Assembly: GCA_963812205.1 (NCBI GenBank)
Contig: CAWEUJ010000004.1
Coordinates: forward strand, 1,257,315-1,321,314
Direction: 5' to 3'
DNA length: 64,000 bases
Source: an uncultured Actinomycetes bacterium
Lineage (GTDB): Bacteria > Actinomycetota > Acidimicrobiia > IMCC26256 > PALSA-610
Part shown: positions 5,730 through 9,993 of the stretch, piece by piece
Position numbering within the stretch: position 1 is the first letter of the stretch
Layout of the letters: each line of letters opens with the position of its first letter
Notes under the pieces: model-generated
The model's database searches: none
The model's input: only the letters and a program-made list of their open reading frames with translations
What the model was told of the DNA's origin: nothing
Position numbers and translations under genes: made by a program

Positions 5730-8270
5730 TTGATGACGTTGTCTGAGCGCTGGCGGCGTACCCGCGGGTATCGACGCGGCCGCGCGGCTGGTCTGGTCGC
5801 GGGCGTTCTCGTCGCGGGTGTGATCACGGTCGCCGGCGCGGAGCCGGCGTGGGCATTGCCGCCGGATGCTCCGGCGCAGCCGTCGGTGGTGGCGGGTGAT
5901 GCGAGTGTGGTGGTGACGTTCGTGGCGCCGGCGGATGGTGGTTCGGCGATCACGGGGTATACGGCGGCGTGTTCGTCGTCGGATGGTGGTGCGGCGGGTT
6001 CGGTGGGTGGGGTGTCGTCGCCGATCACGGTGACGGGTTTGACGAACGGCAAGACGTATACGTGCACGGTGTTCGCGACGAATGCTGATGGTGACGGTCC
6101 GGTGTCGCCGGCGTCGGTGGCGGTGGTGCCGAGCACGGTTCCGGATGCTCCGGCGCAGCCGTCGGTGGTGGCGGGTGATGCGAGTGTGGTGGTGACGTTC
6201 GTGGCGCCGGCGGATGGTGGTTCGGCGATCACGGGGTATACGGCGGCGTGTTCGTCGTCGGATGGTGGTGCGGCGGGTTCGGTGGGTGGGGTGTCGTCGC
6301 CGATCACGGTGACGGGTTTGACGAACGGCAAGACGTATACGTGCACGGTGTTCGCGACGAATGCTGATGGTGACGGTCCGGTGTCGCCGGCGTCGGTGGC
6401 GGTGGTGCCGAGCACGGTTCCGGATGCTCCGGCGCAGCCGTCGGTGGTGGCGGGTGATGCGAGTGTGGTGGTGACGTTCGTGGCGCCGGCGGATGGTGGT
6501 TCGGCGATCACGGGGTATACGGCGGCGTGTTCGTCGTCGGATGGTGGTGCGGCGGGTTCGGTGGGTGGGGTGTCGTCGCCGATCACGGTGACGGGTTTGA
6601 CGAACGGCAAGACGTATACGTGCACGGTGTTCGCGACGAATGCTGATGGTGACGGTCCGGTGTCGCCGGCGTCGGTGGCGGTGGTGCCGAGCACGGTTCC
6701 GGATGCTCCGGCGCAGCCGTCGGTGGTGGCGGGTGATGCGAGTGTGGTGGTGACGTTCGTGGCGCCGGCGGATGGTGGTTCGGCGATCACGGGGTATACG
6801 GCGGCGTGTTCGTCGTCGGATGGTGGTGCGGCGGGTTCGGTGGGTGGGGTGTCGTCGCCGATCACGGTGACGGGTTTGACGAACGGCAAGACGTATACGT
6901 GCACGGTGTTCGCGACGAATGCTGATGGTGACGGTCCGGTGTCGCCGGCGTCGGTGGCGGTGGTGCCGAGTGCCCGGCCGGACGCGCCCGCACCGCCGGC
7001 GGTGGTCGGCGGGAACGGTCGGATCACGGTCACGTTCGTGGCGCCGGCCGATGGTGGCTCGGCCATCACGGGATTCACCGCCTCCTGCACGTCGTCCAAT
7101 GGCGGCGCGGCGCGCTCTCTCGCCGGCCTGGCGTCGCCGATCACGGTGACGGGTTTGACGAACGGCAAGACGTATACGTGCACGGTGTTCGCGACGAACG
7201 CGAACGGCCCGGGCGCGAGCTCCGCTGCATCCGCGGCGGTGATCCCGAAAACCGTTCCGAGCCGGCCGATGGCACCCGCCGTCTCCGTCGGGAACGGTCG
7301 GATCGTCGTGTGGTTCCAAGCTCCTGGAACCGGCGGTTCGCCGATCACTTCGTATCGAGCGCACTGCGGAGCGACCAACGGCGGCTCGAGTAACACGACG
7401 ACCGGCCGGCAATCGCCGATCACCGTGACCGGGCTCACGAACGGTTCGACCTACGTTTGCGCAATCGTCGCGATCAACGCCGTCGGCGCCAGCGCGAGTT
7501 CGCCGGGTTCACGCGCGGTCGTTCCGTTCGGCAGTGGCTTTCGGATGTTCTCCGGCGACGGAGGTGTCTTCGCGTTCGGCGACTCGGGGTTCTACGGCGC
7601 GGCCACCGGTGCGACGCAGTCGCTCGTCGTCGGCATGGCGACGACACGAGATGGCCGCGGCTATTGGCTCGTCGCGCAGGATGGCAGCGTGTTCCACTTC
7701 GGTGACGCGGGAGCCTTCGGTTCGATGTCCGGCGTGCACCTCAACCGTCCGATGGTCGGCATCGCGGCGACACCCTCGGGACGCGGATATTGGCTCGTTG
7801 CCTCGGACGGCGGGATCTTCGCGTTCGGCGACGCTCGGTTCTACGGATCGACCGGCAACATCCGTCTGAACCAGCCCATCGTCGGCATGACGTCGACGGC
7901 ATCGGGACGCGGATACTGGTTCGTCGCGGCCGACGGTGGGGTGTTCGCGTACGGCGACGCGCGCTTCTTCGGATCGGCGGCCGGTCGGAGCACGTCCGTC
8001 GTCGGGATGGCGACGACCGGCACGGGACACGGATACTGGATCGCGTCCGCGGACGGTCAGGTGTTCGGGTTCGGCGACGCCAGGGTTTCGCGATCCGGTC
8101 CCATTCTCGGTCTCCGGCTGCCGATCATGGGCATCGAGGCCACTCCCGATGGCGGGGGCTACTGGATGGCCGGCGCCGACGGCGGGCTCTTCGTCTCGGG
8201 TGACGCGCCCTACATCCACTGGCCCGGACCTCTGCTGCTGCGCAGGATCATCCGGGGCATCAGTCGCTGA
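5730..8270 (+). CDS. Secreted protein: signal peptide, six fibronectin type III domains, and a C-terminal six-fold ~40-aa repeat module
   Basis: 846 aa. The N-terminus is RR-containing and hydrophobic, ending AEPAWA. There are six 93-aa units of the form PDAPAQPSVVAGDASVVVTFVAPADGGSAITGYTAAC...TVTGLTNGKTYTCTVFATNADG (FN3 signature). These are followed by repeats of GYWLVAxDGGVFAFGDAxFYGS. Confidence 0.85.
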   Translation: MMTLSERWRRTRGYRRGRAAGLVAGVLVAGVITVAGAEPAWALPPDAPAQPSVVAGDASVVVTFVAPADGGSAITGYTAACSSSDGGAAGSVGGVSSPITVTGLTNGKTYTCTVFATNADGDGPVSPASVAVVPSTVPDAPAQPSVVAGDASVVVTFVAPADGGSAITGYTAACSSSDGGAAGSVGGVSSPITVTGLTNGKTYTCTVFATNADGDGPVSPASVAVVPSTVPDAPAQPSVVAGDASVVVTFVAPADGGSAITGYTAACSSSDGGAAGSVGGVSSPITVTGLTNGKTYTCTVFATNADGDGPVSPASVAVVPSTVPDAPAQPSVVAGDASVVVTFVAPADGGSAITGYTAACSSSDGGAAGSVGGVSSPITVTGLTNGKTYTCTVFATNADGDGPVSPASVAVVPSARPDAPAPPAVVGGNGRITVTFVAPADGGSAITGFTASCTSSNGGAARSLAGLASPITVTGLTNGKTYTCTVFATNANGPGASSAASAAVIPKTVPSRPMAPAVSVGNGRIVVWFQAPGTGGSPITSYRAHCGATNGGSSNTTTGRQSPITVTGLTNGSTYVCAIVAINAVGASASSPGSRAVVPFGSGFRMFSGDGGVFAFGDSGFYGAATGATQSLVVGMATTRDGRGYWLVAQDGSVFHFGDAGAFGSMSGVHLNRPMVGIAATPSGRGYWLVASDGGIFAFGDARFYGSTGNIRLNQPIVGMTSTASGRGYWFVAADGGVFAYGDARFFGSAAGRSTSVVGMATTGTGHGYWIASADGQVFGFGDARVSRSGPILGLRLPIMGIEATPDGGGYWMAGADGGLFVSGDAPYIHWPGPLLLRRIIRGISR
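5862..6977 (+). repeat. Four tandem copies of a 279-bp unit, nucleotide-identical from 5862 to about 6970 (one FN3 domain per unit)
   Basis: Unit starts are at 5862, 6141, 6420 and 6699. I compared copies 1 and 2 base by base and found no differences. Copies 3 and 4 give identical translation and look identical on inspection, but I did not compare them base by base. Two diverged copies follow (6978-7535) and retain an identical 62-nt core at about 7137-7198. Confidence 0.9.
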
Positions 8271-8478: not shown

Positions 8479-9840
8479 TCAGTGCGCGGCGGCGAGCGCG
8501 ACCGCGGTGGTGTGCGTCGTCGCGGGTTCGCCCCACGCCGTCGCGTTACCGAACGCGACGACCTGGCCGTCGGACAACAGCATCCAGTAGCCGCCGCCGG
8601 CCGGCGTCTGCGCGAATGCCAGCGCGGTCGGCCCGGGACACCAGCCCGCGCCGGGGATGGAGCCGGCGAACGGCGCGTGACCGAAGCTGAAAAGGCCGCC
8701 GTCGCTCGCGAGCAACATGTAGCCGTTCCCGTCCGGGGTCGCGATCATCGACGTCACGGGCGCGGCGAGCTTCATGGCGCCTGTCGATCCGCGGAAGCGC
8801 GCGTCGCCGAAGCTGAACACGCCACCGTCGGCGCCGAGTAGCCAGTAGCCACGGCCACGGGGCGTCGCGGCCATCGAGACGATGGGCGAGTTCAACGTCA
8901 TCGAGCCGGTCGAGCCGTAGAAGTGCGCGTCGCCGTAGCTGAAGATGCCGCCGTCGCGCGCGAGCAGCCAGTAGCCGTTACCGGTGGCGGTCGGCGCGAT
9001 CCCGAGGACGGGTTGGTTCAGCCCGATCGTGTCGGCGCCGCCATAGTCGTGTGCGGTGCCGAACGCGTGCACTGTTCCGTGCGCGGTGACCGTCCAGTAA
9101 CCATGGCCGTCCGGTGTCGAAGCGAGCGCGACGTAGGGGTCGCCGGGTGCCGCCGCGGGCGCGTTGGCGAACTTCGGAACACTCCCGAACGCGAGCACCG
9201 TGCCTTGCGCGCTCAAGGTCCAGAATCCCTGCCCGGCCGCCGCGCTCGGATGCGCGGTGGGGTTGGTCGGGTATGCACACAGGCCGTTCGCACCGGCTCC
9301 CTGGGCGAGCCGCAACGACGTGTAGGGGTCGATGAACGTGTCATCCGGTCGGTGCAGTTCGAAGTGCAGGTGCGGGTCGGTCGTCTCGGCCTCCCCGCTG
9401 TCGCCCATGTACGCGATGAACTGGCCGCGCTTCACGTGCACGCCTTCGGCGATACCCGGGGCGAAGCGCCACCGTGGCGGGTTCGCACCGTCGTCGGTGC
9501 CGGGCGTGTCGTTGTTGATGTGGATGTACCAGTACTTCCACCCGTCGGTACCGGTGAGGATGAGCATGTTCCCCGAGTGACCACTCGAGTCGCCGCGCAC
9601 GAACGTGATCGTCCCGTCGTTCGCGGCGAGCTCGTGATCGAGCTTGGCGCCCATGAGGTCGTTGCCGGGGTGCTGGCGGACACCACCGAAGTCGTCGTAG
9701 TAGTGCACGGGCTCGCGGACCGGGAACGTCAACGGGTGGTACTCGGTGTGGTTCGGCGTGAACGCGGCCTGCGCGTTCGGCGCGCCCGCGACGAAGAGTG
9801 CGACGGCCGCGACCGCGACAACGAGCACTCGATCCTTCAA
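8479..9840 (-). CDS. Secreted M23 family metallopeptidase fused to the same ~40-aa repeat module
   Basis: M23 motifs HPGNDL and DPHLHFELH are present. The C-terminal 249 aa consist of GYWLLARDGGIFSYGDAHFYGS-type repeats. The likely start is TTG at 9840 (LKDRVLVVAVAAVALFVAGAPNAQA signal peptide, AGGGGGA 4 nt upstream). The ORF track extends to 9975. Confidence 0.8.
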   Translation of the reverse strand: MKDRVLVVAVAAVALFVAGAPNAQAAFTPNHTEYHPLTFPVREPVHYYDDFGGVRQHPGNDLMGAKLDHELAANDGTITFVRGDSSGHSGNMLILTGTDGWKYWYIHINNDTPGTDDGANPPRWRFAPGIAEGVHVKRGQFIAYMGDSGEAETTDPHLHFELHRPDDTFIDPYTSLRLAQGAGANGLCAYPTNPTAHPSAAAGQGFWTLSAQGTVLAFGSVPKFANAPAAAPGDPYVALASTPDGHGYWTVTAHGTVHAFGTAHDYGGADTIGLNQPVLGIAPTATGNGYWLLARDGGIFSYGDAHFYGSTGSMTLNSPIVSMAATPRGRGYWLLGADGGVFSFGDARFRGSTGAMKLAAPVTSMIATPDGNGYMLLASDGGLFSFGHAPFAGSIPGAGWCPGPTALAFAQTPAGGGYWMLLSDGQVVAFGNATAWGEPATTHTTAVALAAAH

Positions 9841-9993
9841 CGGGTCCCCCTGCACCGTGCCGCTCGCCACATCGAGGCGAGTCGACGAGTCGGCTTCCCT
9901 CTTCAATTTCGGACGGGCGAGACCGACGCTTGATGAGCTCCGGGTGCCTCGAACGGGTGATATTTGCCCTCGCACGCGGCTGGTATGGTGGTA

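What the first reader, a model, noticed from the sequence alone, without database searches (positions are those of the whole stretch)
5862..6977. Four nucleotide-identical 279-bp tandem repeats, each encoding one FN3 domain
About 1.1 kb of perfect tandem repetition lies inside a secreted-protein gene, followed by two diverged copies that still share an identical 62-nt core. Perfect identity implies very recent expansion or ongoing concerted evolution by unequal recombination. The gene is therefore a likely length-variable (contingency-like) surface protein. The true copy number is also hard to assemble, so the figure of four is itself uncertain.
Basis: seen in the sequence. Interest (0 to 1): 0.6.

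Follow-up and report, generated by a model that had tools for sequence, protein, structure and literature searches.

The report
Gene-converted, strand-skewed FN3 repeat array
Four letter-for-letter identical copies of a 279-base domain-coding unit sit in a secreted protein gene of a soil actinobacterium because one copy recently overwrote its neighbours. The block also has the lopsided G+T composition of a known but unexplained repeat class called GRINS, so it is a clean new example of known things, not a new kind.

Summary
Perfect period-279 identity runs from 5862 to 6970 (3.97 units). The last 7 nt of unit 4 differ. Unit 5 shares a 67-nt exact core with units 1-4; unit 6 does not.

The gene (5733-8270, +) encodes a signal peptide, six FN3 domains and an unnamed six-bladed beta-propeller.

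The syntenic orthologue in the nearest genome (93% nt identity) has exactly the same length and also six units. There, units 1-4 differ from each other by 3-41 nt, and all four window units are nearest its unit 1. So the window's array was homogenised by intragenic gene conversion or unequal recombination, not lengthened. Other species of the genus have 5, 5 and 8 units.

Units 1-4 have almost no C at codon position 3 (GC skew +0.34, TA skew +0.33). They meet the published definition of GRINS (PMC8256042). This scan has reported GRINS before on other DNA.

One addition: in this genome every GRINS-like repeat has its G+T-rich strand on the leading strand, whichever strand codes.

"Contingency-like" is not supported, because the unit is 93 codons and stays in frame.

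The parts
5733..8270 (+). Gene for an 845-aa secreted protein: leader, six FN3 domains, C-terminal six-bladed propeller. Start is ATG 5733 (an in-frame TTG lies at 5730); stop is TGA 8268-8270.
   Evidence: ORF list and translation. Pfam fn3 x6, E 1.2e-66. The orthologue P0002 starts at the same ATG.
5733..5861 (+). Leader of 43 aa: an Arg-rich N-region, a hydrophobic stretch AAGLVAGVLVAGVITVAGA, then AWA followed by LP. This is a probable Sec signal peptide with an AXA cleavage site. A role as an uncleaved membrane anchor is not excluded.
   Evidence: Read from the translation. Homologues also end their hydrophobic stretch in A-x-A just before the first FN3. No signal-peptide predictor was available.
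5862..6970 (+). Tract of perfect period-279 identity (3.97 units). This is the gene-conversion product.
   Evidence: a run of 830 positions with w[i]=w[i+279], starting at 5862.
5862..6977 (+). FN3 units 1-4 (5862-6140, 6141-6419, 6420-6698, 6699-6977). GC skew +0.34, TA skew +0.33. Codon position 3: G 61, T 23, C 9, A 0 of 93.
   Evidence: The 1-kb GC skew of +0.36 is the second strongest in the 4.1 Mb genome, z 7.3.
6971..6977 (+). 3' border of the converted tract. The last 7 nt of unit 4 keep the unit-4-type ending (Ser-Ala-Arg, as in the relative's unit 4).
   Evidence: The protein reads PSAR here and in P0002.
6978..7256 (+). FN3 unit 5, 74.6% identical to unit 1, with ordinary composition (GC skew +0.02). 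It pairs with unit 5 of the relative.
7132..7198 (+). A 67-nt core in unit 5 that is identical to units 1-4 and is written with the G/T-ending codons of units 1-4. Probably an older short conversion tract; it is also present in the relative's unit 5 with 2 changes.
7257..7535 (+). FN3 unit 6, 53% identical to unit 1. It belongs to a clade made of the last unit of every orthologue.
   Evidence: clade support 97.
7536..8267 (+). C-terminal module of six ~42-aa 'GYW' repeats, predicted to be a six-bladed beta-propeller. It is under strong purifying selection (dN/dS 0.08) and is a probable cell-wall or surface-binding module.
   Evidence: Repeat family D2. AlphaFold2 pLDDT 90.5, pTM 0.88. Foldseek top hits are propellers. 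No Pfam, NCBIfam or PDB sequence match. Homologues fuse it to many extracellular enzymes. dN/dS.
5862..7259 (+). Extent of the GRINS element by the published definition: a duplicated region with at least 80% identity, mean |GC skew| 0.29 and mean |TA skew| 0.30 in 150-nt windows.
   Evidence: G000:C4:1263176-1264573, which is window 5862-7259.
8479..9975 (-). Convergent neighbour: a weak M23-like peptidoglycan hydrolase match followed by the same propeller repeats. It is context only, not part of the array.
   Evidence: (family D3).

Best explanation
The array is real. It is the N-terminal part of a six-domain FN3 rod in a secreted, probably wall-associated protein of an uncultured Acidimicrobiia-type actinobacterium.

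Shown:
- In the window's lineage, the sequence of unit 1 was copied over units 2, 3 and all but the last 7 nt of unit 4. This happened by homologous recombination between the repeats, either gene conversion or an equivalent contraction and re-expansion.
- It happened very recently compared with the split from the nearest known genome.
- The number of units stayed at six.
- The same four units already formed a partly homogenised block before that split, and they carry an intense G+T-over-C+A bias at silent sites. This makes the block a GRINS (genetic repeat of intense nucleotide skews), a described class whose cause is unknown and which is linked to frequent gene conversion.
- Across the genus, the N-terminal units evolve in concert within each lineage and vary in number (3 to 6). 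The last two units and the propeller are stable orthologues.

Inferred:
- The FN3 units, joined by short proline-rich linkers, act as a stiff spacer of about 20 nm. This estimate assumes about 3.5 nm per FN3 domain, from general knowledge.
- The propeller holds the protein at the cell wall, or alternatively is the part held away from the membrane.
- The high DNA identity makes further gain or loss of 93-residue steps likely, as in 'Periscope' surface proteins.
For: Identity and borders.

Domains: six fn3; propeller model with pLDDT 90.5 and propeller fold hits.

Orthologue in G018:
- Same synteny (thiolase upstream, M23-propeller gene downstream).
- Same length of 2538 nt, 93% identity, no indel.
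- Its units 1-4 differ from each other by 3-41 nt.
- The window's units differ from its unit 1 by 14 nt and from its units 2-4 by 22-33 nt.

Unit tree:
- Window units 1-4 plus relative units 1-4 form one clade (support 97).
- The window's units nest with the relative's unit 1 (support 90).
- The last units of all orthologues form one clade (support 97).
- G010 units 1-3 form their own clade (support 96).

Timing: 0 differences in 830 sites gives less than 0.36% divergence, against dS of 0.16-0.22 in the flanks.

Unit numbers in syntenic orthologues are 5, 5, 6, 6 and 8. The sister FN3 array has 2 units here and 3 in the relative.

GRINS criteria are met, measured against the definition read in PMC8256042. 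The skew is carried at codon position 3. The unskewed orthologues of other species are also less alike.
Against: - Neither the copy number nor heterogeneity within the population was checked directly.
- The assembly has indel errors elsewhere: the second tuf copy is split into two frames.
- Conversion cannot be told apart from contraction followed by re-expansion to the same number.
- Secretion, wall binding and the spacer role are inferred from sequence and from domain fusions in homologues, not shown.
- The protein has no separate head domain of the kind typical Periscope proteins have.
Confidence: 0.8

Rival explanations
1. Recent tandem amplification. The array shrank to one or two units by unequal crossing-over and then re-expanded from unit 1, ending by chance or by selection at four skewed units again. 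The identity would then record real, fast length change.
For: - The number of units differs among species: 5, 5, 6, 6 and 8.
- The sister FN3 array has 2 units here and 3 in the relative.
- The large FN3 array has 12.7 copies here and 17.8 in the relative.
- Perfect identity of whole units is what amplification gives.
Against: - Gene length is exactly the same as in the relative, 2538 nt.
- The last 7 nt of unit 4 keep the unit-4-type border. Re-expansion would therefore have had to rebuild the same architecture exactly.
- A short 67-nt tract copied into unit 5 shows that conversion without length change does happen here.
Confidence: 0.15
2. Assembly or polishing artefact. The true units differ, as in the relative, or the true number is not four, and the assembler or polisher copied one unit over the others.
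For: - The assembly is a metagenome-type genome with 87% completeness and indel errors.
- All four of its best arrays are 100% identical, while the relative's orthologous arrays show 1-7 mismatches.
- No reads could be examined.
Against: - The 1.1 kb array lies on a 1.58 Mb contig in a 6-contig assembly, so reads longer than the array were very probably used (inference).
- The window's unit is not the majority consensus of the relative's units. It has the unit-1-type tail, which is found in only 1 of the relative's 4 units.
- Length is exactly collinear with an independent assembly.
- Other arrays of the same assembly are not perfect, at 97%, 90% and 81%.
Confidence: 0.04
3. Identity is kept by selection on the protein or on translation (a preferred codon dialect), without recombination.
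For: tuf, the classic highly expressed gene, uses the same codon dialect. Per 93 codons, position 3 is G 58, T 21, C 13, A 1.
Against: - Selection on the protein cannot hold about 80 silent sites per unit identical.
- Ribosomal protein genes next to tuf have ordinary codon use, with C3 of 0.38-0.55.
- The CAI-like score of the units is 0.61, at the 17th percentile, so they are neither optimal nor especially rare.
- Repeats coded on the other strand show the mirror-image dialect.
- The FN3 units are the least constrained part of the gene (dN/dS 0.5-0.8).
Confidence: 0.01

Closest known systems
[quoted passage not shown]
   Same: - A duplicated coding block longer than 500 bp.
- More than 80% identity between copies (here 100%).
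- Mean |GC| and |TA| skew above 0.15 (here 0.29 and 0.30), of the same sign and strongest at codon position 3.
- A mild shift of amino acids towards Gly and Val.
- Copies group by genome, not by position, which indicates gene conversion.
- Orthologues in other species lack both the skew and the high identity.
   Different: - GRINS were described mainly in polyketide synthase modules of Streptomyces. This one is a head-to-tail array of whole FN3 domains in a secreted protein of an Acidimicrobiia-type genome.
- The copies are perfectly identical, against 75-95% in the paper's examples.
- The skew has one sign throughout, whereas PKS GRINS can switch sign within 1 kb.
- In this genome the sign follows the replication strand, a relation I did not find tested in the parts of the paper that I read.
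Periscope Proteins (SasG, Rib, Sgo_0707, CdrA and others; Whelan et al. PNAS 2021, PMC8201768; review PMC9704523)
   Same: - A single-chain secreted protein with a tandem array of folded beta-sandwich domains.
- Very high DNA identity between units.
- Short, proline-rich linkers.
- In-frame unit.
- Repeat number differs between related genomes.
   Different: - No LPXTG anchor and no separate N-terminal ligand-binding head. The only other domain is the C-terminal propeller.
- Variation between strains of one species is not shown.
- The nearest relative has the same number of units.
Concerted evolution of tuf duplicates in bacteria (PMC6053082 and the work it cites)
   Same: Paralogous coding copies are kept alike by recurrent gene conversion. 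In this genome the two tuf copies (97.1% identical, 18 kb apart) carry the same G/T-ending codon dialect as the array.
   Different: The tuf copies are dispersed, essential and strongly constrained. The array units are adjacent and weakly constrained (dN/dS 0.5-0.8).
Contingency loci (phase-variable simple sequence repeats of pathogens)
   Same: Repeat-mediated, recombination- or slippage-prone variation in a surface protein gene.
   Different: Contingency loci use units of 1 to about 9 nt whose gain or loss shifts the frame or the promoter spacing. Here the unit is 279 nt (93 codons), so the gene stays in frame and only its length can change.

Membership tests
GRINS (PMC8256042) | Duplicated region longer than 500 bp | tested here: met
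   1109 bp of perfect periodic identity. 1398 bp at 80% identity or more.
GRINS (PMC8256042) | More than 80% DNA identity to another region of the same gene, cluster or genome | tested here: met
   Units 1-3 are 100% identical. Unit 4 is 97.8% identical to unit 1.
GRINS (PMC8256042) | Mean absolute GC skew and TA skew above 0.15 (150-nt windows, step 30) | tested here: met
   Mean |GC| 0.29 and mean |TA| 0.30. Per unit, GC +0.34 and TA +0.33. The definition was read.
GRINS (PMC8256042) | GC and TA skews correlated and carried mostly by third codon positions | tested here: met
   Position 3 is G 61, T 23, C 9, A 0. Four-fold sites are G 58, T 13, C 1, A 0. Both skews are positive.
GRINS (PMC8256042) | Signs of gene conversion between the copies | tested here: met
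   Units group by genome, not by position. The relative has the same number of units, but diverged.
Periscope Proteins (PMC8201768, PMC9704523) | Tandem array of highly identical, independently folding domains in one chain | tested here: met
   Six Pfam fn3 stretches, four of them nucleotide-identical.
Periscope Proteins (PMC8201768, PMC9704523) | Repeat number varies between closely related strains | not testable with these tools
- No conspecific copy is on record.
- Between species the number is 5, 5, 6, 6 and 8.
- The nearest genome has the same number.
Periscope Proteins (PMC8201768, PMC9704523) | Located at the cell surface (secreted and anchored) | tested here: inconclusive
   - The leader has an AXA site, judged by eye.
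- The propeller is fused in homologues to peptidoglycan hydrolases, glycosidases and proteases.
- Earlier notes e1-3225234 and e1-2113730 read the propeller as wall-binding.
- No LPXTG motif and no experiment.
Periscope Proteins (PMC8201768, PMC9704523) | Stalk projects a distinct functional domain away from the cell | tested here: inconclusive
   There is no domain N-terminal to the array. The propeller could be either the anchor or the projected head.
Contingency locus (phase-variable simple sequence repeat) | Short unit whose copy-number change switches expression by frameshift or promoter spacing | tested here: not met
   The unit is 279 nt (93 codons) inside the ORF. Any whole-unit change stays in frame.

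The most novel reading that the evidence does not exclude
In this genome the polarity of GRINS skew is set by the direction of replication, not by the gene. All six repeats that meet the GRINS definition have their G+T-rich strand on the leading strand, whether they are coded on that strand or on the other. So do the near misses: the tuf pair, a 0.9-kb pair and a second FN3 array.

If this holds widely, GRINS would arise from a process acting on the lagging-strand template during recombination between repeats. Two candidates are cytosine loss on long-lived single-stranded DNA under strong GC pressure, and one-sided handling of heteroduplex mismatches (NucS, which is present here, is known to act on G-T, G-G and T-T). 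That would give a testable cause for a class of repeats whose origin is unknown.
Probability: 0.25. Interest if true: 0.65.

Novelty: new member of a known kind. Interest (0 to 1): 0.4.

Why it matters
- It gives a clean, datable case of concerted evolution inside one gene: four identical units here, the same four units diverged in the sister genome.
- It links two separately described ideas. One is the nearly identical domain arrays of bacterial surface proteins ('Periscope' proteins). The other is GRINS, the unexplained strongly skewed repeats tied to gene conversion.
- The side observation that skew polarity follows the replication strand in every such repeat of this genome is a cheap, testable clue to how GRINS arise.
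- For annotation, it warns that the odd codon use of such blocks is not evidence of foreign DNA.

Tried and rejected
- **Other copies of the same species:** the exact protein is not on record elsewhere. The protein search found only one hit at 90% identity or more, the 845-aa orthologue. Two exact-pattern scans of metagenome contigs, one for the unit junction and one for the conserved core, found nothing.
- **Expression signals:** no promoter-like or terminator-like sites were found around the gene.
- **Propeller:** no match in Pfam, NCBIfam or PDB by sequence.
- **Idea that the G/T-ending codons are rare, slow codons that help identical neighbours fold:** rejected. GCG, ACG, TCG and CCG are the commonest codons of this genome, and the CAI-like score of 0.61 lies at the 17th percentile.
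- **Idea that it is the dialect of highly expressed genes, because tuf shares it:** rejected. Ribosomal protein genes are ordinary, and repeats on the other strand show the mirror image.
- **Idea of an antisense gene:** rejected. The antisense frames are open, as is usual in GC-rich DNA, but the FN3 match in the plus frame is overwhelming.
- **Idea that high identity as such goes with skew:** rejected. Dispersed copies 99.6-99.9% identical (C4:136312, C4:1078244 and C4:1082705; IS-like by pattern, not annotated) have |skew| of 0.06 or less.
- **A filter error of mine:** my first codon statistic used a GC3 filter that excluded this gene and tuf. It was redone without that filter.
Full report
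**1. Observation**

Tandem Repeats Finder reports one array at 5862-7198, with period 279, 4.8 copies and 95% matches. A direct test shows that w[i]=w[i+279] holds for 830 consecutive positions from 5862. Perfect periodic identity therefore spans 5862-6970, which is 1109 bp or 3.97 units.

- Units 1-3 are identical.
- Unit 4 differs only in 6 of its last 7 nt.
- Unit 5 is 74.6% identical and shares an exact 67-nt core (7132-7198).
- Unit 6 is 53% identical and shares no long core.

It is right for one of the two 'diverged copies with an identical core' and wrong for the other.

**2. The gene**

The array lies in the ORF 5733-8270 on the plus strand. The product has three parts.

- A 43-aa leader: an Arg-rich start, a hydrophobic stretch and AWA before LP. 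Homologues have the same A-x-A just before their first FN3.
- Six Pfam fn3 domains of 93 residues each, joined by proline-rich linkers.
- A 244-aa C-terminal module of six ~42-aa 'GYW' repeats. This module has no Pfam, NCBIfam or PDB sequence match.

With an alignment of homologues, the C-terminal module folds with pLDDT 90.5 as a beta-propeller, and its best Foldseek hits are propellers. In homologues the same module follows chitinase, GH43, GH3, SpoIID, amidase, CHAP, subtilase and many other extracellular domains. The convergent neighbour (8479-9975, minus strand) joins a weak M23-like hydrolase match to it. That pattern fits a wall- or surface-binding module. Two earlier notes of this scan reached the same reading. 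I tested only the fold and the fusion pattern.

**3. What happened to the array**

The window lies at G000:C4:1257315-1321314, in a genome of 4.1 Mb in 6 contigs. The best homologue, P0002, comes from a 3.7 Mb contig of another assembly (G018). It sits in the same neighbourhood, with a thiolase upstream and the M23-propeller gene downstream.

The two genes are exactly collinear: 2538 nt each, 181 substitutions and no indel. In the relative, however, units 1-4 differ from each other by 3-41 nt. The relative has three kinds of 3' tail: unit 1, units 2 and 3, and unit 4. All four window units carry the unit-1-type tail. They differ from the relative's unit 1 by 14 nt and from its units 2-4 by 22-33 nt. 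The last 7 nt of the window's unit 4 keep the unit-4-type border.

A maximum-likelihood tree of all units from five syntenic orthologues shows four things.

- The last unit of every gene forms one clade (support 97).
- Unit 5 of the window and unit 5 of the relative pair together.
- Units 1-4 of both genomes form one clade (support 97).
- Within that clade the window's four units nest with the relative's unit 1 (support 90).

G010 units 1-3 also form their own clade (support 96). So the N-terminal units evolve in concert within each lineage, and the two C-terminal units are stable orthologues.

Between the two genomes dS is 0.16 for the thiolase and 0.21-0.22 for unit 5 and the propeller. The identical copies show 0 differences in 830 sites, an upper 95% bound of 0.36%. 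The homogenisation is therefore very recent relative to the split.

The 67-nt core in unit 5 is written with the G/T-ending codons of units 1-4. It is also present in the relative with 2 changes. It looks like an older, short conversion tract.

Because the unit number and gene length are unchanged, gene conversion is the simplest account. Contraction followed by re-expansion to the same number cannot be excluded.

**4. Length variation**

Syntenic orthologues in the genus carry 5 (G010), 5 (G013), 6 (G018), 6 (window) and 8 (G016) units.

I compared other tandem arrays of the genome with G018.

| Array | Copies here | Copies in G018 |
|---|---|---|
| FN3 pair | 2.0 | 3.0 |
| 396-bp array | 3.0 | 3.0 |
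| 126-bp blade array | 4.5 | 4.5 |
| Large FN3 array | 12.7 | 17.8 |
| 306-bp array | 4.1 | 12.0 (orthology doubtful) |

So arrays of this kind do change length on this time scale, but this one has not done so since the split. Variation within a population could not be tested.

The unit is 93 codons, so changes alter length only. The term 'contingency-like' does not fit.

**5. The skew**

Units 1-4 have G 127, C 62, T 60 and A 30. Codon position 3 is G 61, T 23, C 9 and A 0. The 1-kb GC skew of +0.36 is the second strongest in the genome, z 7.3.

The relative's units 1-4 share the bias. Units 5 and 6, the propeller and the orthologues of other species do not.

I first took this for odd codon usage and tested three ideas.

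- *Rare, slow codons.* This fails. The NCG codons are the commonest of the genome, and the CAI-like score of 0.61 is unremarkable.
- *The dialect of highly expressed genes.* This looked promising because tuf has the same position-3 make-up. It fails because ribosomal protein genes are ordinary.
- *An antisense gene.* This has no support.

[quoted passage not shown] GRINS are defined as duplicated regions longer than 500 bp, with more than 80% identity and mean |GC| and |TA| skews above 0.15. The skews are strongest at third positions. GRINS are linked to gene conversion, are found in many phyla and gene families, and have no known cause.

Applying that definition to the whole genome gives six GRINS. 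This array is one of them, at window 5862-7259, with mean |GC| 0.29 and mean |TA| 0.30. The amino-acid make-up is shifted mildly in the published direction, towards more Gly and Val. This scan has reported GRINS several times on other DNA, including in adhesin repeats.

**6. A side result on GRINS polarity**

In G000 the strongest skew islands are repeats kept alike by recombination.

- the two tuf copies (97.1% identical, 18 kb apart)
- this array
- a perfect 396-bp x3 array
- a perfect 126-bp x4.5 array of propeller blades
- a perfect FN3 pair
- arrays of 306 bp, 258 bp and 279 bp x12.7
- a 0.9-kb pair

More than 20 arrays of 72-87% identity have |skew| of 0.11 or less (one short blade-repeat pair is an exception, see below). 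Dispersed copies 99.6-99.9% identical (IS-like by pattern, not annotated) have |skew| of 0.06 or less.

In all six strict GRINS and in all the near misses (nine repeat families in total), the sign of the skew equals the sign of the weak background skew of the surrounding 200 kb. dnaA lies at C4:259841-260326, beside the skew switch of contig C4. The G+T-rich strand is therefore the leading strand.

This holds whichever strand codes. Three families are coded on the G-rich strand and six on the C-rich strand, and their codon use is mirror-image. Four-fold sites are G 58 and C 1 in this array, against C 62 and G 3 in the 396-bp array.

Nine of nine gives a two-sided binomial p of about 0.004. It is weaker if neighbouring repeats are counted once.

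The GRINS paper mentions replication-linked deamination as a possible source. It sets it aside because PKS GRINS switch sign within an element. Here 95-100% of the 150-nt windows in each element share one sign.

This is one genome, so it is a lead, not a rule. NucS is present. Its known preference for G-T, G-G and T-T mismatches is from my own knowledge and was not tested here.

**7. Artefact check**

*Against an artefact:*
- The gene is collinear with an independent assembly.
- The unit is not the majority consensus of the relative's units.
- The contig is long.
- Other arrays in the same assembly are imperfect.

*For caution:*
- The assembly has indel errors. The second tuf copy is split into two frames, and another note reports a split gcvP.
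- All four of its best arrays are perfect, where the relative shows 1-7 mismatches.
- No reads were seen.

**8. Verdict**

The feature is real.

It is a new member of two known kinds, GRINS and Periscope-like identical domain arrays. It comes with one modest new clue, the link between skew polarity and replication direction.

Noticed in passing
G000 genome: C3:300452-301062, C3:320092-321263, C4:1263176-1264573 (window 5862-7259), C5:31222-32489, C5:154199-158460, C2:1353960-1356288: Six repeats meet the published GRINS definition. In all six the sign of the GC and TA skew equals the sign of the background skew of the surrounding 200 kb. The G+T-rich strand is therefore the leading strand, whichever strand codes. 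Codon use is mirror-image between repeats coded on opposite strands.
   Followed up: partly
G000:C4:497569-498756 and C4:515717-516908 (outside the window): There are two tuf copies, 97.1% identical and 18 kb apart. They have the strongest GC skew of the genome (+0.35 to +0.385) and the same G/T-ending codon dialect as the array, while neighbouring ribosomal protein genes are ordinary. The second copy is split into two frames near codon 212, which is either an assembly indel or a pseudogene. tuf is poor in C at position 3 in most genus members examined and in several members of the order, and rich in C at position 3 in others that mostly have a single copy or diverged copies.
   Followed up: partly
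G000:C4:362092-362645 (locus L023:3093-3646) and G018:C3:1784186-1785019 (L022:3186-4019): A second FN3 array with the same skew (codon position 3: G 58, T 27, C 8, A 0) has 2.0 perfect units here and 3.0 units (98% identical) in the close relative, within otherwise collinear flanks of 94% identity. This is a direct case of a copy-number change on this time scale.
   Followed up: yes
G000:C3:300452-301018: A perfect tandem array of 126 bp x 4.5 encodes identical propeller blades ([42 protein letters not shown]). The blades of one propeller are therefore being homogenised as well. The relative has the same 4.5 copies at 98% identity.
   Followed up: partly
window 5862-6140 compared with L009: Synonymous divergence of unit 1 from its orthologue (dS 0.079) is less than half that of the flanks (0.16-0.22), while dN/dS is high (0.53, against 0.08 for the propeller). 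Silent sites of the skewed block seem to change more slowly, or in a biased way, but the numbers are small.
   Followed up: no
window 8479-9975 (minus strand): The convergent neighbour joins a weak M23-like peptidoglycan hydrolase match to the same six-blade propeller module. The gene pair is conserved in four other genomes of the genus.
   Followed up: partly
G000:C5:26634-27547 and C5:28238-29151: A 0.9-kb pair, 97% identical and 1.6 kb apart, contains blade repeats and has a GC skew of -0.30. It lies next to the 306-bp GRINS array, and all have the polarity of that contig's background.
   Followed up: no
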